DNA of 64,000 nt from Octopus sinensis (Eukaryota): positions 109,554,001-109,618,000 of the forward strand of contig NC_042999.1 in the NCBI RefSeq assembly GCF_006345805.1, given 5' to 3'. Made by a program: the position numbers and the translations under genes. Below, one piece after another: positions 791-46,785 of this stretch (positions are counted from its first letter, which is position 1; the number at the start of each line of letters is the position of its first letter). The notes under the pieces are model-generated. The model was not told the origin of the DNA and did no database searches. It saw nothing but the letters and a program-made list of their open reading frames with translations.

Positions 791-3368
791 ACAATCTTTT
801 TTAATATTCACTTATTTCTTTATGTGTGATGACGCCATTATGTCACATCAAAAATTTTGATAATTATTATATGAACATTTTTATTGAAATGTTTTAATTA
901 CATTTTTAATTTAAAATATAAAATTTTAAAAATGCCTTATAAGATATATTTTTCCTTTTTTAAAAGACTATTTAGAAGACAATTTTTATTGTAACATTTT
1001 CATTATATTTTCTTCCAAGTATTTATTTATCTATGTAAATATAATTTCATCATTATGTTACTTGTTTATTGTGTTACTCTAGTGACAGCAGAAGTAGTGA
1101 CATGGTCATGAATGAATGTACACTTGCAATAGAAGTCAGGTAGGAAAATGTTTAAAAAAAATTTACACAATTTCAACTGTTACTTCTTCCAATTATCTCC
1201 CTTCCCTTGGACAATAGCTTGCTTTACTTGTGAGATATTTCTATCCATACAATCACTTCAAAGTCATTTTATCCTTGATATAGTCAAAAATTTCAAAATA
1301 ACATCCAGATATATTCTGAGTCAGTCTTTCCTATAGAATGTTGATTTTCATAATGTTCTTCAGTAACAAGTTTTTGCTAATGTTTTATGATCAAGCAGAA
1401 AAACAAATGTTTTACATGTTACTATATTATTGTCACGGTCTTACACCAGACCTGACCAAGTAAATCCAGGATCAAAGGTATCCCAACTGGGACCATCCTG
1501 TTTTTAATTTGTAGGGTCTCTAGGACTACAATATCTAATGTGTCCAACCCTTTTTAAGATGTTATGCTGTAATTTGAGATACATTAAGTTGCTATTTTTA
1601 GCAGGCTAGTGACAACACAATGTGTTCGTTGTTGGCTCAATAGAAATAGACGATCATTTGTGTTGTTGTTAAACTTGAGGTGCAATATTAAATCAAGGGT
1701 ATTCACAGCTGTTGTGAAGGAAAGACAGTTAAGGCCGTATAAACTGAATAGATGATATCTGCTGTGTGGAGAAAGTTTCATGGGTTGGTAATGGAGAATA
1801 TTTGTAGTAAAGATAATACAATGAAGACTGAGATAACAGAGCCTCACAAATTCTTGATAATTCTATGATTGAGATGAACAGAGAAACACTGAATTGCACA
1901 CCTGTCCAACCCGCGTCACTATAAAAAGACCTGATGAGATTGTTATAGCATTGCATTCTGCTTTTGAATAAAACAAATTGTTGTACCTCTTTAGTTCATT
2001 TGAACCAATGTGCAGTTTATTTTAAACTGGGTACTTTAATTCATAGTTGAAATTTATTCAGTGCTAAAATATTTCTTTAAAAAAGGCAAACACATATTCA
2101 TATTTTTATAAATAATACAAAAATAGGCAAATATGAAAAAGTAGATGCAAAAATGTATACAATTGCTTGAATTCAACTGGTATAAATTTGTTTGCTTTGC
2201 ATTAAGGGCGACTCTTAGATGGTCCAACCAGAACATTGGAAGTGATAGCCTTATTCATAATTACAAAACACTGAGTCAGCAAATATGTGGATATGGATGT
2301 GTATATTATCAGTCATAGTAACAGAAAGTAGTTTATCACCCAGCTGATTAAAGAAAACAACTACCTTTTCAAATCAACATCACAAAATACTTCGTGGTTT
2401 TGGGGTTGAAATCCATAATAAATTACTCAAGAAACATCCAAAATGATTTTAGTATAACATACCCATTCAGTTTAAATGCTATACTTCCATGTAGGATCAA
2501 TTCTGTCACCTTGAAAGACCTGAATTCGATAAAGTCTGGTTCTTCCAAAAGTCCTGCCGGCATACAGCAATACTATCTCAAAATTTAGTCAATGATGCAC
2601 ATAATAAACAAGGTACAATACTTGTAAAATCATACAAAATTATCATTGATCTCGAAGAGTACTGGACTGGACCTTAGTGATGGCAAGCAGGATGACCTCT
2701 TTTCCATATATGTCAAGTCACTCAGTGCTGTTGCTGACATTTTGGAAGCTGTGATCCATCCATCAAGTGCTGTGACAAGGGTTAGGGAAAGAAAGCAAGT
2801 GGCTAAAACATGTATCACTGCAAGCATATCTATCTTGGAATTGGTGATAGTAGAAACAATTAGAGTTGCTGTAAATCAACAAAGGTTTTTATCAACATCA
2901 TCAGATTGTTGGAGATATCTGAAGTGACAGGCAAAGTGGGCTCTACTTCATAACTATGGCAGTGAATTGGTTTGGCAATCATCCATGGTAATGTTCTATG
3001 TGGCGGTGTGTTGCTGGATAGTCAGAAACAATTAAGACAAATTTCAAATCTGACCCTGTTAAATCCAATCACATATAGCTTACAATGAACGTTTTTAGAG
3101 GTATTGATTTTCTTTTAAATATTATGAATGATATTAAAACTACCAATATTTATTAATCATTGTTTGAGGTATTTTGTTAATAATTCATTAGATTTTATTC
3201 CCTTCTGAAAATGGGTTTTTCATTTTAACTTTTTTTTTCGTTTTAGGTATTAGGGACTATATATATAAAATGCATTATTTTTTAGAAGAGCTATGATCAC
3301 CATTTAGAATACATGTGTAGCATTGTATTTGCTTATGTCTTATTTCTTGGTAGTACTGTACTGTATGC

Positions 3369-3946
3369 TAGTGCTCCACAACCTTTTTTTGCATACGGTA
3401 CACTTATCTTCTTTTCGAAATTCAGCAGCACAGCTAGACTAGAAATATAACTAAAAATGTTCTTTTATTCTTTTACTTGTTTCAGTCATTTGACTGTGGC
3501 CACGCTGGAGCACCGCCTATAATCGAACCAATCAACCTCAGGACTTATTCTTTGTAAGCCTAGTACTTATTCTGTCAGTGTCTTTTGCTGAACTGCTAAG
3601 TTACAGGGAGGTAAACACACCAACATCGGTTGTCAAGTGATGGTGGGGGAACAAACACAGACACAAATACATACATACATAGATACATACATATATATAT
3701 ATGACGGGCTTCTTTCAGTTTCTGTCCACCAAATCCACTCACAAGGCTTTAGTTGGCCTTAGGATATATTTGAAGATACTTGCCCAAGGTGTCATGCAGT
3801 GGGACTGAACCCAGAACCATGTGGTTGAGAAGCAAGCTTCTTACCACACAGTCACTCCTGCACAAGGAAAAAGATTATATTCCGGTTACATTAGCACTGT
3901 CTTATGGCACACCAATGTGCCACAGCATACCAGTTGTGGAGCACTG
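3369..3946. mobile_element. hAT-type MITE with 8-bp TSD, interrupted by a SINE
   Basis: TIRs TAGTGCTCCACAAC / GTTGTGGAGCACTG; perfect 8-bp flanking direct repeat CTGTATGC at 3361-3368 and 3947-3954. Confidence 0.85.
3464..3862 (-). mobile_element. tRNA-derived SINE family A (CORE-like)
   Basis: Reverse complement of the 9182-9612 copy: A/B-box head, ccttgggcaagt core, tail gactgaaacaagtaaaaga. Confidence 0.9.
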
Positions 3947-4354
3947 CTGTATGCTATAAAGCAGTAGTCAGTAGTCTATGGCCCTTGGATTGAGTCTGGT
4001 CTGTTGTATCCAGACAAAGTGAAGTGCTGGTCGATTTGAATGAGATATTTTGTTCATTACTGCAATAATTAAAACATTACACCATTACCTAAATACACTT
4101 GCTTTTATTTTTCTCTGTATGCTTTTTTTATACTGTAATATTTACCTGATTTACAGCTAAGTTTAATCAATATTTCAATATTCCATACTGTACAAGATCA
4201 ATCCAGAATATTTTAGATTCACAGTGCTAACTTATTTAAGGAAAACCATTTAGAGTCAATGACTTTCACTGTCAGGAACCTATCAATTGAAATGTGTTGT
4301 CTAATAGCTCTGAACAAATGACATATATATATTCTAGTTATCATCCTTATCATC

Positions 4355-4610
4355 ACCACCACTACCACCACCATCATCATCGTCATCATCATCATCACCA
4401 TTTATAGTCCACTTTTTCATGCTTGCATAGGTCAAACAAAATTTGTCGAGACAGATTTTTTTGTAGTCATATGTCCTTCTTTTTGCCAGCCTTCACCTGT
4501 TTTCAAACAAAGTAATATTCCTCGTGGCCAGATATGTTTTCCATTGATGACTGTAAAAGAACATCTCTTGTATGATGTTGATACTCATTTACAATTATTA
4601 CATGGTTTCA
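4355..4610 (-). mobile_element. Degenerate RTE-tail-related fragment ending in (GAT)n
   Basis: (CAT)n followed by ttt..gtccactttttcatgc, the reverse complement of the RTE 3' end motif at 28880-28923. Confidence 0.5.
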
Positions 4611-4752
4611 AGCAAAGTTACACACACACACACATACAGATATACGTACATGCATACTTCTCTCTCTCTCCCTGAGTATATAATGTTGATTCGCTAGCTT
4701 CTGCACGCATTTTTTTCTCTCCTTGTTTCTTTCCGTGTTTCTTTTCTGTGTA

Positions 4753-4790
4753 TCTTTCTGTTGAAGAGTGTAGGCTCAAAACGTAAAAGA
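4753..4790 (+). ncRNA. Degenerate minimal hammerhead-like motif in a (TA)n-adjacent element (~4672-4886)
   Basis: tcttt-CTGTTGA(A)-gagt gtag gctc-AAAA-cgTA-aaaga: stems I and II pair, palindromic ACGT stem III, two core mismatches. Confidence 0.5.
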
Positions 4791-4885
4791 CTTGTTTTAT
4801 TTATATTCCTGAGCGCCATACTAATACAATTGTTTGTTTGTATTCCACCTGCCTTCGTCTTTTGTTTATTTTCATAAAGCTTCCC

Positions 4886-23046: not shown

Positions 23047-23072
<26 letters not shown>
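22909..23072. repeat. (CTAT)n(TA)n microsatellite
   Basis: Seen directly. Confidence 0.95.
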
Positions 23073-23079
<7 letters not shown>

Positions 23080-23350
23080 TTAATAAGGGTGAGAGAATTA
23101 GATACTAATTTAATAGTATATCTATTCTACACCAAGTGGCCTAGTGCTCCGAGAAACCTGGATTATTATAATATTTTATAACATATTATAATATTCTTAC
23201 AAAATAAATATAAGAGAGTGGTCACTATATGGCTCACTCTAGCACCAGTTAATCCAAAAGGTTTCAACCACAAAAATACATGTTTCCCATGAAAGTCAGA
23301 ACGATTGTTAGCTCACACACACGGACAGGCAAATAAAAATAACAAAAATA

Positions 23351-23446
23351 CAGATTATTTTGGGACAATTGTTTCGCTATTAATGAATTAAATGTAATAT
23401 TACTTACAAAAAAATCCACTTGTAGCTCCTCAGCCAAAACTATCTG
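23351..23446 (-). ncRNA. Type I hammerhead ribozyme, copy 1
   Basis: Reverse complement: cagatagttttgg CTGAGGA gcta..tagc GAAA caattg TC ccaaaataatctg; predicted cut between 23364 and 23363. Confidence 0.88.
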
Positions 23447-23884
23447 GATGAAATCCACTCAATCACACGCCAGATTTTACCATAACGATAAATACGCGTG
23501 TGGTTCAATTGATTACATCCGACGTTATAATTCAAATGCCCCAACTAACAGCGCGCCAAATTTTCACGGAAAACAAATACAGCATTTAGAAATAAATGCA
23601 GCATAATTATAATTAATTAATAAGGGTGAGAGAATTAGATACTAATTTAATAGTATATCTATTCTACACCAAGTGGCCTAGTGCTCCGAGAAACCTGGAT
23701 TATTATAATATTTTATAACATATTATAATATTCTTACAAAATAAATATAAGAGAGTGGTCACTATATGGCTCACTCTAGCACCAGTTAATCCAAAAGGTT
23801 TCAACCACAAAAATACATGTTTCCCATGAAAGTCAGAACGATTGTTAGCTCACACGGATAGGGCAAATAAAAATAACAAAAATA

Positions 23885-23980
23885 CAGATTATTTTGGGAC
23901 AATTGTTTCGCTATTAATGAATTAAATGTAATATTACTTACAAAAAAATCCACTTGTAGCTCCTCAGCCAAAACTATCTG
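23885..23980 (-). ncRNA. Type I hammerhead ribozyme, copy 2
   Basis: Same as copy 1; predicted cut between 23898 and 23897. Confidence 0.88.
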
Positions 23981-24867
23981 GATGAAATCCACTCAATCAC
24001 ACGCCAGATTTTACCATAACGATAAATACGCGTGTGGTTCAATTGATTACATCCGACGTTATAATTCAAATGCCCCAACTAACAGCGCGCCAAATTTTCA
24101 CGGAAAACAAATACAGCATTTAGAAATAAATGCAGCATAATTATAATTAATTAATAAGGGTGAGAGAATTAGATACTAATTTAATAGTATATCTATTCTA
24201 CACCAAGTGGCCTAGTGCTCCGAGAAACCTGGATTATTATAATATTTTATAACATATTATAATATTCTTACAAAATAAATATAAGAGAGTGGTCACTATA
24301 TGGCTCACTCTAGCACCAGTTAATCCAAAAGGTTTCAACCACAAAAATAGGTAGCTACAAGTGGATTTTTTTGTAAGTAATATTACATTTAATTCATTAA
24401 TAGCGAAACAATTGTCCCAAAATAATCTGTATTTTTGTTATTTCTATTTGCCCTGTCCGTGTGAGCTAACAATCGTTCTGACTTTCATGGGAAACATGTA
24501 TTTTTGTGGTTGAAACCTTTTGGATTAACTGGTGCTAGAGTGAGCCATATAGTGACCACTCTCTTATATTTATTTTGTAAGAATATTATAATATGTTATA
24601 AAATATTATAATAATCCAGGTTTCTCGGAGCACTAGGCCACTTGGTGTAGAATAGATATACTATTAAATTAGTATCTAATTCTCTCACCCTTATTAATTA
24701 ATTATAATTATGCTGCATTTATTTCTAAATGCTGTATTTGTTTTCCGTGAAAATTTGGCGCGCTGTTAGTTGGGGCATTTGAATTATAACGTCGGATGTA
24801 ATCAATTGAACCACACGCGTATTTATCGTTATGGTAAAATCTGGCGTGTGATTGAGTGGATTTCATC

Positions 24868-24963
24868 CAGATAGTTTTGGCTGAGGAGCTACAAGTGGAT
24901 TGTTTTGTAAGTAATATTACATTTAATTCATTAATAGCGAAACAATTGTCCCAAAATAATCTG
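24868..24963 (+). ncRNA. Type I hammerhead ribozyme, inverted copy
   Basis: Stem I 24868-24880/24951-24963, CTGAGGA 24881-24887, stem II gcta/tagc, GAAA 24939-24942, palindrome ACAATTGT, GTC cut after 24950. Confidence 0.9.
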
Positions 24964-25103
24964 TATTTTTGTTATTTTTATTTGCCCTATCCGTGTGAGC
25001 TAACAATCGTTCTGACTTTCATGGGAAACATGTATTTTTGTGGTTGAAACCTTTTGGATTAACTGGTGCTAGAGTGAGCCATATAGTGACCACTCTCTTA
25101 TAT

Positions 25104-25135
<32 letters not shown>

Positions 25136-25136
<1 letters not shown>

Positions 25137-28102
25137 TGTTGATGTATGTTGATGTATGTTGTATGCAAGAAATAAGGTGGAGAGGAGGATCTGCTAGGGT
25201 CCTCACAGGCAAGGGACACAGGTACAAGATTTTCTGGGCAGGGAACACTGACGGGGTTGGTGGCGTGGGTATAATTATCGCTGAGAAATGGATAGATAGA
25301 GTAATTGAGGTAATCAGAGTAAGTGACAGAATACTTAAGATTAGAATAGTGCTTCATAATAGATTAGCAACCATTATATCGGCCTATGCCCCTCAGCCAG
25401 GGCTACCCGATGGACAGAAAGACAGTTTCTATGACACCCTACTGCAGACCACCTCATCGACGAACGACAGGGACCTTCTCTTTGTGGCTGGTGATTTCAA
25501 TGGGCATGTTGGACGACATGCTGGGGGCTTCCATGGCGTACATGGAGGCTACGGTTATGGTTCCCGCAACGAGGAGGGAACCAGGCTGCTGGAGTTCTGC
25601 GATGCGAATAGTCTTATGGTCTGCAACACTAACTTCAGGAAACCAACAAGCCACCTGGTCACCTACCGATCGGGCCGGCATACTAGCCAAATCGACTACA
25701 TCCTTGCCAGAAAAAGGGAAAGATGGCTGCTTAAAAATGCCAAAACCTTCCCAGGTGAAGAATGCACCCCACAACATAGACTGGTAGTTAGTGACTTTAG
25801 GATCAGGACTAAGAGGGCGACTAGAAGACGACCAACATGGAGAAGAAGGGTCTGGAAGCTTAAAGCCCCTGCGAATGGACAGAGATTTAGAGATATGTTA
25901 CTTGAAGCCTTTGACGAAGTGGAAGGGGGTATAGCTACACATGGGGTAGAAGACAACTGGACGTTTCTGAGGGACAACCTGCTGAAAGCCGCTGACCAGA
26001 TCTGTGGCTGGTGCAAAGTCCCCTTAAGACCCAAAATAACGTGGTGGTGGAACAATATTGTTGACAGGGCTATTAGACAAAAGAAACAGGCTTGGAAGGC
26101 CTGGAAGAACGGTGGTAGCAGGGAAGGGTATCAGACTGCCAGAAGGGAAGCTAGGAGACAGGTCTATCTAGCCAGAGGGGAAGCAGATAAGAGAAAATTT
26201 GCCAATGTCCTGCGCCGTGAGGATGAAAGACTTGAGGTATTTCGTGTTGCAAGACAGTGTGTGAGAGAGAATCGTGATGTGGTAGGAGAGAAATGTGTTC
26301 GCATGGAGGATGGTTCACTTGCGCTAAATGAGGATGCAAAGAGAGAAGCTTGGAGACGCCACTATGAAAGGTTACTGAATGAGGAAAATGAATGGGATAA
26401 AGAGAGTCTGCCGAATGTTGACCCTACAGAGGGACCAGCTATCCGAGTTGATAGTTCCGTGGTAGCTAAGGCAATTAGAAGCATGAAGACAGGGAAAGCC
26501 CCAGGCCCATCAGGAATTACTGCAGAGATGCTCAAAATATCTGGCAGTGTCGGCTATAACCTAGTCACCCGTATAGTCAACCAGGTGATACACGAAGGAG
26601 TCATACCCAATGACTGGTGCAGCAGCATACTAGTCAACTGCTACAAAGGTAAAGGTGATGCCCTAGATACAAATAATTACAGAGGTATCAAGCTGTTGGA
26701 TCAAGTAATGAAGGTTACGGAGAGGGTCATAGCCCAACTAATTAGAGAGAGAGTTAGTTTAGATGAGATGCAGTTTGGGTTCGTGCCAGGAAAAAGTACC
26801 ACTGATGCTATATTCCTGGTAAGGCAGCTGCAGGAGAAATACCTAGCCAAAGATAAGCCCCTGTACCTGGCTTTCGTTGACATGGAGAAAGCTTTTGATA
26901 GGGTCCCCCGATCCCTTATCTGGTGGTCAATGAGGAAACTAGGGATAGATGAATGGCTGGTGAGGACTGTGCAAGCCATGTACAGAGATGCCGTAAGTAA
27001 GGTTAGGGTTGGCAACATGTACACAGAAGAATTCAAAGTAGAGGTTGGGGTCCACCAGGGTTCAGTACTCAGCCCCCTCCTATTTATCATAGTACTCCAG
27101 GCAATTACGGAGGAATTCAAGACAGGCTGTCCCTGGGAGCTCCTCTACGCTGACGACCTTGCTCTTATTGCTGAGTCACTATCAGAACTGGAGGAGAAGT
27201 TCCAGGTGTGGAAGGAGGGTTTAGAATCAAGGGGCCTTAGAGTCAACCTAGCTAAAACCAAAGTACTAATAAGTAGAAAGGTAGACAATCCACAAATATC
27301 TTCAGGAAGATGGCCCTGCTCGATCTGTAGAAAAGGTGTAGGTAGAAACTCTATAAGATGTACCCAGTGTAAGCTATGGACACATAAGAGGTGCAGCAAT
27401 GTCAAAGGTAGGCTAACTGGGAAGATAGTTTTTGTATGTGGCAGATGCTCGGGAGCATTAACCTCCGAAAATCTGCAGAAAACAACTTCCGTCACTTTCC
27501 AGGGGGAAAAACTAGAAGTAGTTGATAGCTTCCGTTATCTAGGTGACCAAGTCAGTAGTGGGGGTGGGTGCGCTGAAAGTGTAACTGCTAGAATAAGAAT
27601 AGCCTGGGCAAAGTTTAGGGAGCTCTTACCTCTGCTGGTGACTAAAGGCCTCTCGCTCAGAGTAAAAGGCAGACTGTATGATGCGTGTGTACGAACAGCC
27701 ATGCTACATGGCAGCGAAACATGGGCTGTGACTGCTGAGGACATGCGTAAGCTCGTGAGGAATGAAGCCAGTATGCTCCGATGGATGTGTAATGTCAGTG
27801 TACATACTCGACAGAGCGTTAGCACCTTGAGAGAAATGTTGTACCTAAGAAGCATCAGTTGTGGTGTGCAAGAGAGACGATTGCGCTGGTATGGTCATGT
27901 GGCGAGAATGGATGAAGATAGGTGTGTGAGAAAGTGCCAATCCCTAGCAGTTGAGGGAACCCGTGGAAGAGGTAGACCCAGGAAAACCTGGGACGAGGTG
28001 GTGAAGCACGACCTTCGAACTTTAGGCCTCACTGAGGAAATGACCAGAGACCGAGACCTTTGGAAATATTCTGTACGTGAGAAGACCAGGCAGGACAAGT
28101 GA
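25136..28102 (+). CDS. RTE-clade non-LTR retrotransposon ORF (APE endonuclease + RT + inserted PHD-like finger), 5'-truncated
   Basis: APE motifs QE, GVG, YAP, GDFNGHVG, QIDYIL, HRLV; RT motifs KAPGPSG, NYRGIKLL, QFGF, AFVDMEKAFD, GVHQGSVLSPLLF, YADD, FRYLG; RTE C-terminal RLRWYGHV..RGRGRPRKTW. The first APE motif is absent and the start abuts (TA)n. Confidence 0.96.
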
Positions 28103-28187
28103 GCCCAGCCCACTTATGAATGCCTTTCCTCCCTTGGACACAAAGACCGGTTGAGGCAAGCGAAGTCGATATAGAACCTCATCCGAC

Positions 28188-28637
28188 GACAGACACCCAT
28201 CCCAACCCCCCATGCCTGCGAAGACATGTTGGGGCAAGCGAAATCGAAACCGAATTGAACCAGCCAGGATCCCTGGCCTGGTGGTACGTAAAAAGCACTA
28301 TCCGACTCGGGGCCGTGGCACGTAAAATACTCCAATGCGACCGTACGACAGGCACCCATGCCAACCCCCTTTGCTTGTGAAGACATGTTGGGGCAAGCGA
28401 AATCGAAATCGAATTGAACCAGCCAGGATCCCTGGTCTGGTGGTACGTAAAGCACTATCCGACTCGTGGCCGTGGCACGTAAAATACTCCAATGCGACCG
28501 TACGACAGGCACCCTTGCCAACCCCCTTTGCTTGTGAAGACATGTTGGGGCAAGCGAAATCGAAATCGAAATCGAATTGAACCAGCCAGGATCCCTGGTC
28601 TGGTGGTACGTAAAAAGCACTATCCGACTCGTGGCCG
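28188..28637 (+). repeat. ~158-bp tandem repeat (~2.8 units) in the RTE 3' UTR
   Basis: aagacatgttggggcaagcg at 28221, 28380 and 28537. Confidence 0.9.
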
Positions 28638-29216
28638 ATGCCAGCACCGCCTCGACTGGCTTCCGTGCCGGTGGCACATAAAATACACCAATCTGACCGT
28701 GGCCGTTGCCAGCCCCGCCTGGCACCTGTGCAGGTGGCACGTAAAAAGCACCCACTACACTCACGGAGTGGTTGGCGTTAGGAAGGGCATCCAGCTGTAG
28801 AAACATTGCCAAATTAGACTGGAGCCTGGTGCAGCCTTCTGGCTTCCCAGAACCCCGGTCGAACCGTCCAACCCATGCTAGCATGGAGAACGGACGTTAA
28901 ACGACGATGATGATGATGATGATAGAGAGAGAGAGAGAGAGAGAGATAGAGAGTCACAATGAGATTATTCAAACCTCTTATAGGGATATCTATCTAAGAT
29001 GCACTGGTTTAATACATTATATCTTGAAGAGATATTTCTTTAATGAATATATTATATAAAATGTCTTAAAATAGCAAACATTATCATCGAATTAGAAAGC
29101 AGAGAGATCTAATGGATACAAATCAATTTTTTAATTAATCAACATACACACATAATAAATATGTCTATATATTCTGAGTATTCTAAACATATCCTAATGT
29201 AATCATTATTGTCCTT

Positions 29217-29328
29217 CATATACCCTGATAATTTTCCATAAAGGTATTTAAAATGCAATATTATATATTTATATATGTTTTCTGATTTTAATTTCGTTTA
29301 TGAAACGAAACAAGTCTAGGTGAATATG
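29217..29328 (+). ncRNA. Degenerate hammerhead-like motif (duplicate at 33758-33869)
   Basis: catatacc CTGATAA ttttccataaa..tttatgaaac GAAA caag TC taggtgaatatg; one core mismatch and an imperfect stem III. Confidence 0.4.
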
Positions 29329-29385
29329 TTGATTAATTAATAAATTAATTTGTATCCATTAAACCTCTGTTTTCTAACTTGATAG

Positions 29386-29630
29386 TCATCATCATCATTG
29401 TTTAACGTCTGCTTTCCATGCTGACATGGGTTGGATGGTTTGACTGAGGACTGGTGAGCCAGAGGCTGCACCAGTCTCAATCTGATCTGGCAATGCCCTT
29501 GCTCAAAAGGTGTTTTTTACATGCTACCTGCAGGGAGCCAGTCTGGCAGCAGCACTGGCAACGACCATACTTGAATATTGTTTTTCATGTGCCACCAGTA
29601 TATGTGCTGGTAAGGCAACACTGGCAGGAT
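29386..29630 (-). mobile_element. RTE 3' terminal fragment (duplicate at 33927-34171)
   Basis: (CAT)n-gtttaacgtctgctttccatgc.., the reverse complement of the RTE tail. Confidence 0.85.
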
Positions 29631-29678: not shown

Positions 29679-32600
29679 AGATGTTGATGTATGTTTGATG
29701 TTGTTGTATGCAAGAAATAAGGTGGAGAGGAGGATCTGCTAGGGTCCTCACAGGCAAGGGACACAGGTACAAGATTTTCTGGGCAGGGAACACTGACGGG
29801 GTTGGTGGCGTGGGTATAATTATCGCTGAGAAATGGATAGATAGAGTAATTGAGGTAATCAGAGTAAGTGACAGAATACTTAAGATTAGAATAGTGCTTC
29901 ATAATAGATTAGCAACCATTATATCGGCCTATGCCCCTCAGCCAGGGCTACCCGATGGACAGAAAGACAGTTTCTATGACACCCTACTGCAGACCACCTC
30001 ATCGACGAACGACAGGGACCTTCTCTTTGTGGCTGGTGATTTCAATGGGCATGTTGGACGACATGCTGGGGGCTTCCATGGCGTACATGGAGGCTACGGT
30101 TATGGTTCCCGCAACGAGGAGGGACCAGGCTGCTGGAGTTCTGCGATGCGAATAGTCTTATGGTCTGCAACACTAACTTCAGGAAACCAACAAGCCACCT
30201 GGTCACCTACCGATCGGGCCGGCATACTAGCCAAATCGACTACATCCTTGCCAGAAAAAGGGAAAGATGGCTGCTTAAAAATGCCAAAACCTTCCCAGGT
30301 GAAGAATGCACCCCACAACATAGACTGGTAGTTAGTGACTTTAGGATCAGGACTAAGAGGGCGACTAGAAGACGACCAACATGGAGAAGAAGGGTCTGGA
30401 AGCTTAAAGCCCCTGCGAATGGACAGAGATTTAGAGATATGTTACTTGAAGCCTTTGACGAAGTGGAAGGGGGTATAGCTACACATGGGGTAGAAGACAA
30501 CTGGACGTTTCTGAGGGACAACCTGCTGAAAGCCGCTGACCAGATCTGTGGCTGGTGCAAAGTCCCCTTAAGACCCAAAATAACGTGGTGGTGGAACAAT
30601 ATTGTTGACAGGGCTATTAGACAAAAGAAACAGGCTTGGAAGGCCTGGAAGAACGGTGGTAGCAGGGAAGGGTATCAGACTGCCAGAAGGGAAGCTAGGA
30701 GACAGGTCTATCTAGCCAGAGGGGAAGCAGATAAGAGAAAATTTGCCAATGTCCTGCGCCGTGAGGATGAAAGACTTGAGGTATTTCGTGTTGCAAGACA
30801 GTGTGTGAGAGAGAATCGTGATGTGGTAGGAGAGAAATGTGTTCGCATGGAGGATGGTTCACTTGCGCTAAATGAGGATGCAAAGAGAGAAGCTTGGAGA
30901 CGCCACTATGAAAGGTTACTGAATGAGGAAAATGAATGGGATAAAGAGAGTCTGCCGAATGTTGACCCTACAGAGGGACCAGCTATCCGAGTTGATAGTT
31001 CCGTGGTAGCTAAGGCAATTAGAAGCATGAAGACAGGGAAAGCCCCAGGCCCATCAGGAATTACTGCAGAGATGCTCAAAATATCTGGCAGTGTCGGCTA
31101 TAACCTAGTCACCCGTATAGTCAACCAGGTGATACACGAAGGAGTCATACCCAATGACTGGTGCAGCAGCATACTAGTCAACTGCTACAAAGGTAAAGGT
31201 GATGCCCTAGATACAAATAATTACAGAGGTATCAAGCTGTTGGATCAAGTAATGAAGGTTACGGAGAGGGTCATAGCCCAACTAATTAGAGAGAGAGTTA
31301 GTTTAGATGAGATGCAGTTTGGGTTCGTGCCAGGAAAAAGTACCACTGATGCTATATTCCTGGTAAGGCAGCTGCAGGAGAAATACCTAGCCAAAGATAA
31401 GCCCCTGTACCTGGCTTTCGTTGACATGGAGAAAGCTTTTGATAGGGTCCCCCGATCCCTTATCTGGTGGTCAATGAGGAAACTAGGGATAGATGAATGG
31501 CTGGTGAGGACTGTGCAAGCCATGTACAGAGATGCCGTAAGTAAGGTTAGGGTTGGCAACATGTACACAGAAGAATTCAAAGTAGAGGTTGGGGTCCACC
31601 AGGGTTCAGTACTCAGCCCCCTCCTATTTATCATAGTACTCCAGGCAATTACGGAGGAATTCAAGACAGGCTGTCCCTGGGAGCTCCTCTACGCTGACGA
31701 CCTTGCTCTTATTGCTGAGTCACTATCAGAACTGGAGGAGAAGTTCCAGGTGTGGAAGGAGGGTTTAGAATCAAGGGGCCTTAGAGTCAACCTAGCTAAA
31801 ACCAAAGTACTAATAAGTAGAAAGGTAGACAATCCACAAATATCTTCAGGAAGATGGCCCTGCTCGATCTGTAGAAAAGGTGTAGGTAGAAACTCTATAA
31901 GATGTACCCAGTGTAAGCTATGGACACATAAGAGGTGCAGCAATGTCAAAGGTAGGCTAACTGGGAAGATAGTTTTTGTATGTGGCAGATGCTCGGGAGC
32001 ATTAACCTCCGAAAATCTGCAGAAAACAACTTCCGTCACTTTCCAGGGGGAAAAACTAGAAGTAGTTGATAGCTTCCGTTATCTAGGTGACCAAGTCAGT
32101 AGTGGGGGTGGGTGCGCTGAAAGTGTAACTGCTAGAATAAGAATAGCCTGGGCAAAGTTTAGGGAGCTCTTACCTCTGCTGGTGACTAAAGGCCTCTCGC
32201 TCAGAGTAAAAGGCAGACTGTATGATGCGTGTGTACGAACAGCCATGCTACATGGCAGCGAAACATGGGCTGTGACTGCTGAGGACATGCGTAAGCTCGT
32301 GAGGAATGAAGCCAGTATGCTCCGATGGATGTGTAATGTCAGTGTACATACTCGACAGAGCGTTAGCACCTTGAGAGAAATGTTGTACCTAAGAAGCATC
32401 AGTTGTGGTGTGCAAGAGAGACGATTGCGCTGGTATGGTCATGTGGCGAGAATGGATGAAGATAGGTGTGTGAGAAAGTGCCAATCCCTAGCAGTTGAGG
32501 GAACCCGTGGAAGAGGTAGACCCAGGAAAACCTGGGACGAGGTGGTGAAGCACGACCTTCGAACTTTAGGCCTCACTGAGGAAATGACCAGAGACCGAGA

Positions 32601-33467
32601 CCTTTGGAAATATTCTGTACGTGAGAAGACCAGGCAGGACAAGTGAGCCCAGCCCACTTATGAATGCCTTTCCTCCCTTGGACACAAAGACCGGTTGAGG
32701 CAAGCGAAGTCGATATAGAACCTCATCCGACGACAGACACCCATCCCAACCCCCCATGCCTGCGAAGACATGTTGGGGCAAGTGAAATCGAAACCGAATT
32801 GAACCAGCCAGGATCCCTGGCCTGGTGGTACGTAAAAAGCACTATCCGACTCGGGGCCGTGGCACGTAAAATACTCCAATGCGACCGTACGACAGGCACC
32901 CATGCCAACCCCCTTTGCTTGTGAAGACATGTTGGGGCAAGCGAAATCGAAATCGAATTGAACCAGCCAGGATCCCTGGTCTGGTGGTACGTAAAGCACT
33001 ATCCGACTCGTGGCCGTGGCACGTAAAATACTCCAATGCGACCGTACGACAGGCACCCTTGCCAACCCCCTTTGCTTGTGAAGACATGTTGGGGCAAGCG
33101 AAATCGAAATCGAAATCGAATTGAACCAGCCAGGATCCCTGGTCTGGTGGTACGTAAAAAGCACTATCCGACTCGTGGCCGATGCCAGCACCGCCTCGAC
33201 TGGCTTCCGTGCCGGTGGCACATAAAATACACCAATCTGACCGTGGCCGTTGCCAGCCCCGCCTGGCACCTGTGCAGGTGGCACGTAAAAAGCACCCACT
33301 ACACTCACGGAGTGGTTGGCGTTAGGAAGGGCATCCAGCTGTAGAAACATTGCCAAATTAGACTGGAGCCTGGTGCAGCCTTCTGGCTTCCCAGAACCCC
33401 GGTCGAACCGTCCAACCCATGCTAGCATGGAGAACGGACGTTAAACGACGATGATGATGATGATGAT
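29679..33467 (+). mobile_element. RTE LINE copy 2
   Basis: Near-identical to copy 1 at an offset of 4544-4545 bp. Confidence 0.93.
29708..32646 (+). pseudogene. RTE ORF copy 2, frameshifted by a 1-bp deletion at ~30124
   Basis: gggaacc in copy 1 versus gggacc here splits the ORF into 29708-30331 and 30160-32646; the protein is otherwise the same. Confidence 0.9.
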
Positions 33468-34175
33468 AGAGAGAGAGAGAGAGAGAGATAGAGAGTCACA
33501 ATGAGATTATTCAAACCTCTTATAGGGATATCTATCTAAGATGCACTGGTTTAATACATATATCTTGAAGAGATATTTCTTTAATGAATATATTATATAA
33601 AATGTCTTAAAATAGCAAACATTATCATCGAATTAGAAAGCAGAGAGATCTAATGGATACAAATCAATTTTTTAATTAATCAACATACACACATAATAAA
33701 TATGTCTATATATTCTGAGTATTCTAAACATATCCTAATGTAATCATTATTGTCCTTCATATACCCTGATAATTTTCCATAAAGGTATTTAAAATGCAAT
33801 ATTATATATTTATATATGTTTTCTGATTTTAATTTCGTTTATGAAACGAAACAAGTCTAGGTGAATATGTTGATTAATTAATAAATTAATTTGTATCCAT
33901 TAAACCTCTGTTTTCTAACTTGATAGTCATCATCATCATTGTTTAACGTCTGCTTTCCATGCTGACATGGGTTGGATGGTTTGACTGAGGACTGGTGAGC
34001 CAGAGGCTGCACCAGTCTCAATCTGATCTGGCAATGCCCTTGCTCAAAAGGTGTTTTTTACATGCTACCTGCAGGGAGCCAGTCTGGCAGCAGCACTGGC
34101 AACGACCATACTTGAATATTGTTTTTCATGTGCCACCAGTATATGTGCTGGTAAGGCAACACTGGCAGGATATAT

Positions 34176-34216
<41 letters not shown>

Positions 34217-34345
34217 TAAAAGGAATTCCAACCTTGTCTGATTTTCACGTTTTATTTACAATCTTATAATGATATAATATAGGATAATATAATATAATAA
34301 AATAAAATAAAATAAAATAATAGAATGTTAAATGTTCATTCTGAT

Positions 34346-34390
34346 TGAACTAGTACTTTCATGCATTAAATTATGCAATCTTCAGGTTCA
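34346..34390 (-). ncRNA. Minimal type I hammerhead ribozyme
   Basis: Reverse complement: tgaac CTGAAGA ttgcat aattta atgcat GAAA gtac TA gttca; intact core, palindromic AGTACT stem III, first stem II pair mismatched. Confidence 0.72.
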
Positions 34391-36892
34391 TGTAGTAGTG
34401 GTGACAGTCATGCTCCACAATTTTTGACTGTAGCGAGATGGTTAAATCTGTGCCTTAAATACACCTGTGTAGGCTCCAGATTGCTAGGTTTTGCAAACTG
34501 TATTCTGACCAATCAGTGTGTAGCATCACTCAATTACTTAAGCTGATTGGTTTAGGCTTGATAAAATGGGGTTGATAAAATAAGTATCAGTCATCCTAAT
34601 GTTGACTTTATCAACTTCTCCCTCCAACAAAAACTACTGGTTCTGTACCAAGATTTGAAACCATAGTTAGATTTGAATTTACATTAGGTTTTCTAATACA
34701 ACTTGTACATAAATATATATTAATTATTTAATTCTACCCTAATAAATGCATGATACCAATTTGCATGATACTAATACATTGATGTCATTTTTCTTGTATC
34801 TTGATTCAGAAAGGGGTTCAGGTATGTTATCTAACCTTAAATTTATTAAAGATTAAACCTGTATACATCTTAGTAGAATTTGGTGCTTTTATCTCACATT
34901 TACATACTATGTTGTAGGTCATATGATTATTTTTCAAAGAATATTTGCTGGTTTTATACAGTCAGAAATGGTTTCATTTCCAACTACTGTATTTTGTTTC
35001 TTTGAATTTACTATGTTGGAGACATAATGTTCTCCATTAAGTGTATGGAGCAAGATAGATTTACACTTATTTTTATATGAGTATACCAGTTTCTCAAGTA
35101 CCAGGATCAACAACCAAAAGGACTGCCTGAATGTTGGTAAAAAAAAAGAAAAAGACAGGCACATGCAATTTGCTCCCATTGAATTTAAATCACAGCTGTA
35201 AAGCACCAAGTGTCTGCTGCATTTCCTTTTAAATGAATCTTTTAAACAATTTTGTCAGTTTTAAGAACAACAATAAGATTAGTTTCAGTTCTAACAGAAA
35301 ATATTTCTCTAATTGAGTCAATTTGCAAGTGAAAAAATATAGACATTATAATAGAAATTATATATAAAGCTTCCATTCTCTCATTGATTATCTACAAATA
35401 AAAAAGTAAGTTGTATCATTATTTACTTTGTCCCTTTTATTTTATCATAAAGTTTATGTTCACATATAATCAAATATTTAGTTAATCAAAAATTACAGAG
35501 TAATGGACATATCTCACAAGTTTTCCTTCTTTTTCTTTTCTTTTATTTTTCTTCATGTAAAACTGGCTGAAATTAAAGACTGAGTATTCTTAAGATAGTT
35601 CTTGTAAGAAACAAGGCTTAGTTAAGCTAGACAAATAATTGGTTATCAACAACTTAAATAATAATGATATTTCCCTTTGCAGCTCTTCCTTTGTACTACA
35701 GTTAAATTTCTTCATCATATGTAAAATTACTACCTGTTAAATTGGTATATTTGAGTACAAACAGCTTTATTTCTTGCCAATTAATTTGTTTAACTGTGTT
35801 CAACAAAACTAATTTCATTATTTGTTTCAGTTCCTGTTAAGAAATTACTATTTTTCTTTTTCATTCATCATTTTGGTTTATCAGGCACATTGCAAAATCA
35901 TGAACTCCAAGTGTTGGGTGTTATGCGTTGCATTATCATGCTTAATAAAACTGTTTGATTTTATCTACATTTTAAATAAACCAAATTCTTCATGGAGATA
36001 GGGAAAATACTACACTTCAGTCTTTCAAGTGCATGTCTCTAAAGATTGCTGTTTTAGCAAACACTAATTCCAGAGAAGATATCAGAGTATAAGATACTGG
36101 ATTATAAAAATCAATGCTATACATGTTACTGCTTAGGTACTGATCATCCTGGATCCAGCAGACTTATGAACAAAGGTACCCCAGCCTAGATTATCCCATC
36201 TTTTATTCATATACCATGTCACAAGAACTACAATAGCTAATGTAACCTTGTAAAAAAGACTGTAAGAGGTGATTTGGGCAGGATTTAGCTAGTACTTCAA
36301 GCTTGTCAAGTTATCTTGTAGAGGTTTCCTCACTGGCTCAGCGAAAGAATCAAAAGCCTGCTTAGTTTCTTCTCTCTGTAATCAAATTAATTGCTTGGTG
36401 AGCAAGCAGAATCAGATAAAATGTTAAGCAGCATTTTTTGCAGCTCTTTATGCTGCAAGTTCAGATCCTGCTGAGGTCAGCTTTATCATTCACTCCTTTG
36501 AAGACGAAAAAATTTATGTAAATACTAATTAAAATGCCAATAAAAAGTAAATGCCAATTTACCAGACTTATACTTTCACATAAAATTGGAATAAATTTTT
36601 TATTATCAAACTCTACCACCAGAAACATTCTACAAATAAGAAAAATAAGTTTGATGTATTAATGTCCAATATTGCTTACAGAAGGAAAAAAGGAATGTTA
36701 AAAAACCAATCCTAAGAAGGTGGTGCATTTTTTTGAAGGATGAAAACTAGAAGAAAGGTTCAAAAACTTTAGTCAGTTAAATTCTCATAGGATTAGATTT
36801 ATATTTTACAAAATACTGGATTATAGGTATTTTTGTTTCCAGTTTAAAAATGAAACTAGTTTATATAAATAAGTGGGGGATAAATATTACCT

Positions 36893-43546: not shown

Positions 43547-43876
43547 AAACTAGGAAAGAGAATAAATTTCAAAGGTCAGTTTTCATATTCACTCAATATA
43601 TTTTAAAATATGCAGATGGTGAATGTATAGCGGTAATCCAAATAGATGAGAAAGTTGGTATAAAACATATAAACTTTACCTTACTATGATTTCCTGAATA
43701 TTCATGATTTCAGTTATTTCACTCGAAAAGACAATTAGACAGATCTCCATCCACAATTATACCACACCAAAAAAAAAGAAAGAAAGAAAGAAAAATTCAC
43801 CAGAAAGAAATTATTAATTAAAGCACTGAGGGGTTGTTTTGAACTGCATGAGAAAATCAAAAATTACCAGTTGTAG

Positions 43877-43953
<77 letters not shown>

Positions 43954-43956
<3 letters not shown>

Positions 43957-44540
43957 TTAAAATGAGGGTGAGAAATTGGATATTAATTTAATTAACATCA
44001 ATTTCTCACCAGTGGCCTGGCATATAAAAATCTGAAGGTTCAGTAAATTGTATTATATACATATGAGAGGGATGGCCTCTATGTGAACAACCCTTATGCT
44101 AGAAGTAGATCCACTATGGTCTTATCACTAAGAAATGTTCTCAAGAAAAATTTAACAAACACCAGAATGTAAGCAAGCAAGAGAAATGAAAAGCAACAAA
44201 AATATAGATTATTCACATACATGTTTCACTATTAACAGATTACATAATTTTACTTACGCAATTTGTCCATAGATCTTCGGTGTGACTGTCCATACAAATA
44301 TAATTTGCAGAACTATATACTAGGACACCCACACAAAATCTGGCTTATATATAGTTCTACCTATTACACTCATGGTTACAATCTATATTTTTGTTACTTT
44401 TCATTTGTCTTGCTTGCTTACATTTTGGTGTTTGCTGAATTTTTCTTGAGAACATTCTTAGTGGTAAGACCATAGCAGATCTACTTCTAACATAAGGGTT
44501 GTCCACATAGTGGTCATCTCTCACATATGTATACAATACA
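43954..44540. mobile_element. Diverged member of the hammerhead fold-back family
   Basis: Starts agggtgaga.aatt.gata.taatttaat..cacc.agtggcct like the 534-bp unit; inverted arms 44048-44210 / 44380-44540; (TA)n on both flanks. Confidence 0.8.
44207..44290 (-). ncRNA. Degenerate hammerhead ribozyme
   Basis: Reverse complement: gacagtcaca CCGAAGA tcta..tagt GAAA catg TA tgtgaataatc. Confidence 0.7.
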
Positions 44541-44542
44541 TA

Positions 44543-44574
<32 letters not shown>

Positions 44575-46785
44575 AAACCCCTCAGTTCTTTAATTAATAA
44601 TTTCTTCCAGGTGTTTTTTTCCTTTCTTTGCTTTTTCTTTTGTTTTTTGTTTTTTGGTGGTATAGTTGTGAGTGGAGATCTGTCTAATTGTCATTTTGAG
44701 TAAAATAGCTGAAATCACGAATATTCAGTAAACCAAAGTAAGGTAAAGTTTATACAATATTCCAAATTCACTTTCCTGGCAAACAGATTATGATCAAAGT
44801 CAAGCAAACTGTATATATAAGCTTTAGATTTACATTCTCTGTGTCATAAAACTCTATCAACACAGTTATAACAAATATATCTGACATTTAAATACATATC
44901 AGTCCTGCCATATCAACTATATGAACAGAAAAACATAAATTTCAAAATAAATAATTTAAATTCAATAAAAACAATGGTTTAAAGAATTTGTGAGTATAAG
45001 CAGGTTATTTATTTAGTTTTATCATTTTTCATGTAAGGGAGGATTGAGGATGTAAGAATTATTCATCGAAAATTTTTTTTATTTTATTCAAACTTACTGT
45101 TTTATGTGACTTACAATGTCATATTGTTTATACATTTAATACATTGCAGGAACTGTGAACATTTTGCATTTTATAAATATTTTAACTTTCATTTTGATGT
45201 ATAAATTTATATATCTTTATAAGAGTTTCTCATGATATTAAAGATTGACACGATACTCTGAAATTTGTTGTTTTACATTCTGAGGGGCTATGATTTTCTA
45301 TACATTAGGTATTTCAACATTTGGTGCCTTGTTTGTTATTGTTGTTGTTGCCTAGTGCGAAGGCAACCATGATCAAATTTTTTGAACAATAAATATGCCA
45401 GCTCTTTTCTAGGACTAATCTATCCAGAATGTCCTAACATTTTAAAGACTATGCCTGAAAAAAAGTCAGGAGAGTCATAGCTGGAATGCTTAATCAGAGC
45501 TGACTTAGAAATACACAACAATATCAAAGAAGGCACCTAATATTTAGATATCCAGTAATAACTGACAAGGGCATGTGTAAAAGTGGTGAAATCTGATCTC
45601 AGGTTACTAAGTCATGAGTGACGGCTACAAGGGGTGTTACATTGCATAGGAGAAAATCTGCCTCATCTTTGCATGCAGAGAAAAAGCAGAGCTAAAGTAA
45701 TGATGATGATGATGATGATGATGATGCAATGCTGATGCAATGATGTAGAGTGTGGTTGAGGGATTTATATTAGAAGTGTCTTCTTCGACTTGCCATCTTG
45801 TATGCATTGATGAAGGATAAGAGTGAGAAGAAATTAATTCGTTTTTGAAACAAATTCTTAATCCATAAGTTACTTAAAACATTTAGAGATACATTTCTAT
45901 AATTTTAGTAAAAATTAGATCTGAAAAACACTATTTTTTAAACAGTACAATACTTCTATAAGCATTTCTGGCTAAAATGTCAAATATATTGAAAAACTCA
46001 ACTGTTTCTGAGCACAACTATAATATTTAGTAACTTTGCATCTATTCAACATTTTCTTAGAATGTATAACAGATAGCTTTGATATCATTCTAAATAAAGA
46101 ACTCGTGTCTTCTTCAGCAGAAACTGTGAGTGAATGCATGTTATTTTTCATTCATATTATTCAGAAGAAATAGCTAGAGTATGATGGCATTTTCCTTTTA
46201 ATTTAATGAAAAATAAAAGTGTCACGGTTCTTGAGCACCAGAGAATTTATTAGTTATTAGTCTTTGGAGAGCCTTGCCTTTAATGATAAATCCATCTCAT
46301 TGGAATATTTTTACCAAACGTGGATAAAATATAGTTGATATACAACTTTTAACTAATAGGTTGCAACATTTTTGCCATTTATATCTGCCAAGAGAAAGGA
46401 TAATTGGCCCTTTAAAAATCGATATTTTTAAAATGATGTATTTCCTATGGTTATATATTTCAAATATCTCTCTCTATATATTTATTATTACCAAAGTGCA
46501 AAATGCCTGTGGTGTTGTTCTGCTTCTCAAATAAACTAAAAACAGTTTCTGTTTTTTTTAATTAGGAAATATTACTGCTTATTGTCAATAGGAGGAAACA
46601 TGAAAATCGGTAAAATTGCTGTTGCTGGCAAATTCTAAAATTACTTGAATTTTTTAATTACTTTCCTGATCTCTCTGAAGAATGTGTTTACATTTTCTGA
46701 TTCCAAAACGCTAAAATGATAAGTGAGTGATGTTTCATTATGTAGATCTCTGTACTATATTCCTTGGATCTGTTTTTCTTAGATT

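What the first reader, a model, noticed from the sequence alone, without database searches (positions are those of the whole stretch)
43954..44540. Diverged relative shows covariation in the hammerhead stems and the same fold-back layout
Seen: same terminal sequence and HHR position as the 534-bp unit. Stem I is tcaca/tgtga instead of ttttgg/ccaaaa, and stem III is ACATGT instead of ACAATTGT (still palindromic). The core has decayed to CCGAAGA. The inverted arm starts at 44380, about 7 nt past the predicted cut site. Inference: compensatory changes support a selected ribozyme fold, and an arm starting near the cut suggests the template was a self-cleaved RNA. This independent locus also argues that the 23-25 kb palindrome is biological.
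Basis: partly seen in the sequence, partly recalled or inferred. Interest (0 to 1): 0.75.

Follow-up and report, generated by a model that had tools for sequence, protein, structure and literature searches.

The report
Slow-core hammerhead Penelope fold-back insertion
This 590-base hairpin is an old copy of an abundant protein-less jumping element that carries a hammerhead self-cutting RNA motif. The motif's stems co-vary across at least five related subfamilies, its unusual core is inherited and not decayed, and the hairpin was likely made by a Penelope-type enzyme copying the RNA from two fixed start points, mostly straight through the predicted cut site.

Summary
43954-44540 is one copy of a ~534-bp repeat family (B; 3,709 first-look candidates), related to the young 23-25 kb family (A). 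Its minimal type I hammerhead is on the minus strand.

Covariation is real: across 8 representatives, 6 of 7 helix I pairs change on both sides and 10 of 10 core columns are invariant.

Two inferences need correcting. First, CCGAAGA is not private decay: it marks this copy's subfamily (12 of 16 rows) and is the consensus of sister family C (19 of 20 loci), together with a U.U at the base of helix II. Second, a self-cleaved linear template is not the rule: this locus's long arm reads through the ribozyme, as do 23 of 40 B arms, and 0 of 47 A arms end at the cut. B does show a modest pile-up of ends around it (17 vs 6.8 expected).

Fold-backs are the family norm, almost always one tailed plus one tail-less arm (64 of 67) in (TA)n. 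This is the Penelope insertion pattern with an unusually long tail. Verdict: a non-autonomous Penelope-like element/retrozyme; helper not identified, cleavage untested. The scan noted similar fold-backs in other genomes.

The parts
43877..43953 (.). (TA)n target, left side
   Evidence: 124 of 140 family B and 67 of 69 family A outer ends abut a TA/CA-type microsatellite
43954..44379 (-). Long arm: unit positions ~425 to 1 in RNA sense; starts at fixed site S1 (43954) and crosses the whole ribozyme; 92% identical to the family majority
43954..44052 (-). ~100-bp tail between start sites S1 and S2, present in one arm only
   Evidence: start positions cluster at unit -1 (23 segments) and 100-103 (48 segments) among 158 segments
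43967..44010 (.). Hairpin next to start site S1 (role inferred, untested)
   Evidence: self-match on the minus strand, 89%
44213..44285 (-). Minimal type I hammerhead: helix I UCACA/UGUGA, core CCGAAGA (U4C), U.U at 10.1/11.1, long helix II, GAAA, palindromic helix III ACAUGU, predicted cut after GUA (44218/44217)
44379..44380 (.). Head-to-head junction of the two 5'-truncated arms
44380..44540 (+). Short arm: unit positions ~256 to ~96-100 in RNA sense; outer end at fixed site S2; stops 7 nt short of the cut site; 94% identical to the family majority
44525..44574 (.). (TA)n target, right side (overlaps the AT-rich arm end)
23066..25129 (.). Young family A insertion of the same kind: 2.4 tandem units from S1 joined head-to-head to ~1.4 units from S2; three hammerheads with canonical core and G-C at 10.1/11.1

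Best explanation
This is an old, 5'-truncated fold-back copy of a protein-less ~534-bp hammerhead element, likely a non-autonomous Penelope-like element (non-LTR retrozyme) that was inserted into a (TA)n run by the enzyme of an autonomous Penelope element. Shown: family structure, fixed outer ends at two sites ~100 nt apart, variable inner ends, tailed-plus-tailless pairing, both arms from one source haplotype, stem covariation, inherited U4C + U.U core. Inferred: the endonuclease cuts both strands of (TA)n; each 3' end primes reverse transcription inside the RNA, one at S1 and one at S2; the two cDNAs stop at variable points and are joined head-to-head, often through a few bases of microhomology. 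Inferred: the template was mostly uncut at the ribozyme (a read-through multimer or a re-ligated circle; not separable here), and the ribozyme is a selected but slow motif that would cut as a dimer through its palindromic helix III. Cleavage itself is untested.
For: Family size and layout. Two start sites, and tailed + tail-less pairing in 37 of 40 (B) and 27 of 27 (A) fold-backs whose arms both start at S1 or S2, binomial p about 2e-8 each. Opposite arms differ at 9 of 680 polymorphic-site comparisons against 27% between loci (family A). In 13 of 37 B pairs neither arm is contained in the other, which excludes copy-back from the first cDNA for those. Junction overlap in 16 of 37 B and 14 of 27 A pairs. 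Covariation: 9 of 22 pairs change on both sides, 94.3% of cells paired, 0 of 500 shuffles as high, slid controls 29-39%; core 10 of 10 invariant against 28 of 78 other columns, p 1e-4. Read-through: 23 of 40 B arms pass unit position 276 and 0 of 47 A arms end in 275-294. The genome holds intact RT + C-terminal GIY-YIG ORFs of 775-781 aa that end at (TA)n and carry minimal hammerheads on the sense strand, one with the same CCGAAGA-U...U-GAAA core. Literature: one-sided tail and inverted 5'-truncated copy (PMC8557442, PMC3846280; passages); both strands cleaved and extended, two internal RT start sites, ribozyme cleavage not needed for insertion (PMC11167929; parts 1-2).
Against: No autonomous element sharing sequence with families A, B or C was recognised in 45 GIY-YIG loci (the output was cut), so the helper is inferred. 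No target-site duplication can be read in (TA)n. In family B the highest rate of 5' ends lies at unit 250-274, around the cut at 263 (17 observed, 6.8 expected, P 0.0007; 4 ends at 262-264), so a minority of templates may have been cleaved. The two arms of this locus are nested, so this one insertion cannot distinguish two primers from copy-back. The 8 representatives are related and were hand-picked, the structure was drawn from them, and R-scape was not available, so the shuffle counts are not probabilities.
Confidence: 0.8

Rival explanations
1. One reading: the short arm ends near the cut because its template was a self-cleaved linear RNA whose 5' end is the cut site.
For: The arm stops 7 nt short of the cut. 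Family B has its highest rate of ends at unit 250-274, 4 ends at 262-264, and a lower rate beyond (16 observed vs 29.5 expected).
Against: Ten B ends fall at 264-276 (seven at 267-274), past the cut; windows at 180-219 are almost as high (0.017 vs 0.021 per nt); at least one junction folds on the ACATGT palindrome (L188); family A, with the canonical core, has 2 ends within 12 nt of the cut vs 3.4 expected; the long arm of this insertion crosses the cut; this subfamily has the weakest predicted core.
Confidence: 0.2
2. The fold-back comes from one primer: the first cDNA folds on itself or self-primes at a palindrome and is copied back, and the endonuclease trims one end to leave the one-sided tail (self-priming model of PMC3846280).
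For: Short overlaps at many junctions; the two inner ends lie within 12 nt of each other in 12 of 37 B pairs (null mean 6.2, p 0.01) and 4 of 27 A pairs (p 0.06); both arms share one haplotype.
Against: In 13 of 37 B pairs each arm holds sequence the other lacks, which copy-back cannot produce.
Confidence: 0.15
3. The hammerhead is a relic in families B and C: U4C and U.U abolish cleavage, and the stems are kept only as a protein-binding or folding element.
For: U4C considerably lowers activity in vitro (PMC3088659, passage); both changes occur together; arms read through the site.
Against: The ten other core positions are invariant in all 8 representatives; the cleavage triplet stays GUA, GUC or GUU; an axolotl hammerhead with U.U at the base of helix II self-cleaves (PMC7229834, section 15); U4C still supports viroid infectivity (PMC3088659, passage).
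Confidence: 0.25
4. The palindromes are assembly artefacts or a MITE-like DNA transposon with terminal inverted repeats.
For: Long near-perfect inverted repeats in TA sites; the exact 44379/44380 junction was not seen bridged in the listed contig pieces.
Against: The arms of this locus differ by 10-14%; arms have unequal fixed outer ends and variable inner ends; tandem units occur; arm-to-arm joints of other copies appear in short-read contigs of runs from three studies.
Confidence: 0.03

Closest known systems
Minimal hammerheads (min-HHR) of metazoan Penelope-like elements (Cervera and de la Pena 2014, PMC4209133; parts 1-2 of 4 read)
   Same: Type I topology, 5-7 bp helix I, enlarged helix II, palindromic helix III implying dimer cleavage, many subfamilies with compensatory changes.
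   Different: No extra nucleotide between 9 and 10.1; G10.1-C11.1, called highly conserved there, is U.U in families B and C; U4C is a subfamily consensus; helix II domain is 45-50 nt.
Metazoan non-LTR retrozymes (PMC7229834, passages and section 15; bioRxiv 10.64898/2026.07.22.740005, part 1 of 5 and passages)
   Same: Non-coding tandem units with one type I hammerhead each, low GC, dispersed monomers to multimers; axolotl HHR_Amex2 also has U.U at the base of helix II.
   Different: Unit is ~534 bp (150-450 reported); ribozyme is of the minimal PLE type; most insertions are head-to-head fold-backs; circular RNA not shown here.
Complex insertions of endonuclease-positive PLEs: tandem plus inverted 5'-truncated pLTR with a one-sided 30-40 bp tail (PMC8557442, PMC3846280; passages) and PAc internal initiation (PMC11167929; parts 1-2 of 4)
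   Same: Head-to-head inverted 5'-truncated copy, tail on one arm, AT-rich or microsatellite targets, two internal start sites, uncut RNA as the main template.
   Different: Tail is ~100 bp (B) or ~130 bp (A); no ORF; tailed/tail-less pairing is nearly strict (64 of 67), whereas PAc in vitro showed no strand difference in start site.

Membership tests
Minimal type I hammerhead | Core CUGAnGA...GAAA...UH | tested here: inconclusive
   Family B majority CUGAAGA (39 of 53); this copy and its subfamily carry U4C; the other 10 core positions are invariant in 8 representatives
Minimal type I hammerhead | Helices I and II with compensatory changes | tested here: met
   6 of 7 helix I and 2 of 4 helix II pairs change on both sides
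Minimal type I hammerhead | G10.1-C11.1 pair | tested here: not met
   U.U in 46 of 53 B copies and in family C; G-C in A, D and E. A self-cleaving precedent exists (PMC7229834 section 15)
Minimal type I hammerhead | Palindromic helix III for dimer cleavage | tested here: met
   ACAUGU or ACAAUUGU; self-duplex -4.6 and -6.4 kcal/mol
Minimal type I hammerhead | Self-cleavage | not testable with these tools
   needs a transcription assay
Non-LTR retrozyme | Non-coding tandem units, one hammerhead per unit | tested here: met
   Tandem arrays in A, partial tandems in B and C; only short ORFs of 50-70 aa at the locus. This locus holds less than one unit.
Non-LTR retrozyme | Expressed as monomeric linear and circular RNA | not testable with these tools
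   only contigs of runs guessed to be RNA were available
Non-autonomous Penelope-like element | Fixed 3' ends, 5' truncation, tandem plus inverted arrangement with one-sided tail, microsatellite targets | tested here: met
Non-autonomous Penelope-like element | Shared ends with an autonomous RT + GIY-YIG partner | tested here: inconclusive
   Intact PLE ORFs exist but no shared terminal sequence was recognised in 45 loci out of 5,029 first-look candidates
Non-autonomous Penelope-like element | Target-site duplication | tested here: inconclusive
   flanks are (TA)n; cannot be read
MITE / TIR DNA transposon | Equal, fixed terminal inverted repeats and constant length | tested here: not met
   unequal outer ends and variable inner junctions

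The most novel reading that the evidence does not exclude
This superfamily repeatedly evolves deliberately slow hammerheads (U4C together with U10.1.U11.1, fixed in at least two separately amplified lineages and seen in an autonomous Penelope element), because integration needs RNA that is still uncut or re-closed; and each insertion is made by a two-active-site Penelope complex that primes one target strand at S1 and the other at S2, giving an obligatory tailed plus tail-less pair.
Probability: 0.3. Interest if true: 0.68.

Novelty: new variant of a known kind. Interest (0 to 1): 0.45.

Why it matters
What hammerheads do in Penelope elements, and how their inverted, one-tailed insertions form, are both open questions in the papers read. 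This genome supplies thousands of copies in at least five subfamilies with natural strong and weak cores on one scaffold, plus a simple rule for the insertion product (S1 arm + S2 arm from one source). Both can be tested directly by cleavage assays and by the published in vitro PAc system. The locus itself is an ordinary old copy.

Tried and rejected
Rfam scans of the window and of 44150-44350 found no hammerhead, even for intact family A copies: uninformative.

Helper search: PLE protein matches near family loci (L318, L311, L121) are separate insertions divided from the element by (TA)n; family A arrays beside PLE ORFs (L351, L352, L362) likewise lie downstream of the PLE end.

Monomer circle versus tandem multimer as template: units in one insertion mostly share a haplotype (4.2% vs 27% differences at polymorphic sites), which fits both, so this is undecided.

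CpG decay of an ancestral CCG as the source of family B's CUG majority: rejected, because position 5 almost never shows the mirror G-to-A change and U4C is nested among CUG lineages when family C is the outgroup (bootstrap not fully settled). CUG copies inside the U4C clade, and the one CUG copy in family C, are probably CpG reversions (inference).

Inverted duplication of flanking DNA as a family feature: rejected (5 of 131 loci show any inverted flank match).

A second hammerhead at GAAACATGTA inside unit A was considered from the sequence and dropped: no intact core precedes it (scan).

Expression: no RNA holder listed; contigs cannot show ends or strand. The exact junction was not among the 32 pieces listed of about 2,760.

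Literature: searches gave no description of this family or of a U4C + U.U core. PMC13282606 (octopus repeat annotation, passages) has 0 occurrences of 'ribozyme'. Subscription papers, Repbase/Dfam and supplements (for example the supplementary alignments of PMC4209133 and Figure S6 of PMC3088659) were not seen and may hold it.

Full report
Context. The window lies in a 2.72-Gb animal genome, AT-rich and full of microsatellites. That it is octopus-like is my unverified guess. Unit positions below count from the terminus at 43954 along the plus strand; the RNA sense is the minus strand, so low positions are RNA 3' ends.

Observation. Two things were missed: the base of helix II is U.U, and the long arm continues about 160 nt beyond the cut. 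Rfam sees no hammerhead anywhere in the window.

Family. The long arm gave 3,709 first-look candidates in the own genome, the best 40 at 83-93% apart from itself. A majority of 48 loci gives a 534-bp unit, to which this locus is 92% and 94% identical. Family A is young (mostly 97-99%; 1,508 exact 30-mer hits). A degenerate pattern turned up further subfamilies: C (1,255 candidates; 74-80% identical to B, period about 532), D (3 loci) and E (2 loci).

Covariation. In 8 hand-picked genomic representatives, helix I reads UCACA/UGUGA, UUUGG/CCAAA, UCAUA/UAUGR, CUCCA/UGGGG, UCAUG/CAUGA and UUCUA/UAGAA. Nine of 22 named pairs change on both sides, six of them in helix I; 94.3% of cells pair; 0 of 500 shuffles reach this and slid controls give 29-39%. 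Ten of 10 core columns are invariant against 28 of 78 others (p 1e-4). Within B, the second helix I pair is C-G in 37 and U-A in 8 of 53 copies. The sequences are related and the structure was drawn from them, so these counts are not R-scape statistics; the size of the effect still makes a selected fold the best reading.

The core is inherited, not decayed. Among 53 B copies position 4 is U in 39 and C in 13. On a tree built without the ribozyme columns, 12 of the 13 fall in one clade of 16 rows (support 97/93) that includes this locus and has many linked diagnostic sites. Genome-wide, 20 of the first 100 of 168 exact pattern hits carry CCG (my count of the listed rows). In family C, 19 of 20 loci carry CCG although the query carried CUG. 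With C as outgroup, the B-U4C clade is nested among CUG lineages (bootstrap not fully settled), which suggests two origins. U.U at 10.1/11.1 is in 46 of 53 B copies and in C. One intact 775-aa Penelope element has the same CCGAAGA-U...U-GAAA core; two relatives have CUG. Each change has a precedent: U4C lowers activity in vitro yet supports viroid infectivity (PMC3088659, passage), and an axolotl hammerhead with U.U self-cleaves, better as a dimer (PMC7229834, section 15). I found no report of the combination.

Fold-back architecture. I sampled without regard to length: the first 100 of 144 exact hits of a B motif (87 loci, 1 duplicate dropped) and the first 100 of 1,508 hits of an A motif (46 loci, 2 duplicates dropped). 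Outer ends cluster at two sites, unit ~1 and ~100 in B, ~3 and ~133 in A, and abut microsatellites in 124 of 140 and 67 of 69 cases. Head-to-head fold-backs occur at 55 of 86 B and 30 of 44 A loci. Where both arms start at S1 or S2, the pair is S1+S2 in 37 of 40 and 27 of 27; a further 16 B and 3 A junctions involve an arm with another start. Opposite arms share a haplotype (9 of 680 differences against 27% between loci; 61 A loci, 18 of them from other searches). In 13 of 37 B pairs neither arm is contained in the other. Arm-to-arm joints of other B copies appear in short-read contigs, one of them in three runs from three studies; one of these runs may be the assembly's own source. This matches the published Penelope pattern of an inverted 5'-truncated copy with a tail on one end (PMC8557442, PMC3846280; passages), with a tail of 100-130 bp instead of 30-40.

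Was the template self-cleaved? For: in B the rate of inner ends is highest at unit 250-274, with 17 ends within 12 nt of the cut against 6.8 expected (P 0.0007), 4 of them at 262-264, and it falls afterwards. Against: after allele-aware extension 7 ends lie at 251-263 and 10 at 264-276; 23 of 40 arms at risk pass 276; windows at 180-219 are nearly as high; one junction folds on the helix III palindrome; in A, which has the canonical core, 0 of 47 arms end in 275-294 and 2 end within 12 nt of the cut at 292 against 3.4 expected. The long arm of this locus crosses the cut. A minority of cleaved templates is possible, but the near-cut end of this one arm is weak evidence. In vitro, the PAc element also uses mainly uncut RNA (PMC11167929, part 2).

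Mechanism. Inferred: an autonomous Penelope RT-endonuclease cuts both strands of (TA)n and primes two cDNAs inside the element's RNA, at S1 and at S2; they stop early and join head to head. The PAc protein cleaves and extends both strands from two internal sites and is predicted to be a dimer (PMC11167929, parts 1-2). The genome has suitable enzymes: 147 GIY-YIG matches among 150 scored candidates, several in 775-781 aa ORFs with an RT domain, ending at (TA)n. None was seen to share sequence with A, B or C, so the helper is unidentified. Circle versus multimer template is undecided.

Verdict. A real, selected hammerhead in an old copy of a non-autonomous Penelope-like element/non-LTR retrozyme. 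The kind is known, and this scan's earlier AI notes report similar fold-backs in other genomes (unchecked; seen only after my analysis). The variant features are the amplified U4C + U.U core, the long tail and the near-strict arm pairing. Interest 0.45.

Noticed in passing
window 43668-43835 and 44576-44754: An inverted pair (84% identical, about the same divergence as the element's two arms) flanks the insertion outside the (TA)n runs; the own-genome search matched this part only at this locus. Origin unexplained: older hairpin target or inverted duplication at insertion.
   Followed up: partly
window 43547-43665: Internally deleted fragment of another repeat family (140 candidates) that also forms inverted pairs; one member (L370) has a hammerhead-like motif with a CGGCCG palindrome.
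   Followed up: partly
window 34214-34530 (minus strand): 3' end of an autonomous Penelope family (relative of L356/L361) abutting (TA)n, with a minimal hammerhead core at 34385 (CUGAAGA, U.U, GUAC palindrome) and apparently one base missing in helix I.
   Followed up: partly
L349-L353 (ORF 2449-4791): Young intact Penelope family: 781-aa RT + GIY-YIG frame, near-identical in several copies, preceded in two copies by a 479-aa open frame with no convincing Pfam match; its hammerhead (seen in L354, L355) uses the U3-A8 core variant.
   Followed up: partly
window 23606-24136, runs X9, X11, X13, X19: Contigs of four runs guessed to be RNA cover all 30 bins of the family A unit, one X9 contig bridges the cut site, and several contigs or loose ends show clustered A>G or T>C changes that look like A-to-I hyper-editing of fold-back RNA; alleles are not excluded.
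   Followed up: no
L281, L284, L294 (family D); L276, L290: Family D has G10.1-C11.1 and a GUC site yet nests inside the U.U lineages on the tree, and two loci show U.C, suggesting that the canonical pair was regained.
   Followed up: partly
L083, L150, L318, L062: Several single-arm insertions are close to a whole number of units long; this could reflect a circular template or just microhomology of AT-rich unit segments with (TA)n.
   Followed up: no
window 25150-29600 and about 30000-33900: A GC-richer LINE-like stretch (endonuclease-like coding look, read by eye) starts right after the family A palindrome and includes a 4,541-bp-spaced duplication with 157-bp tandem repeats.
   Followed up: no
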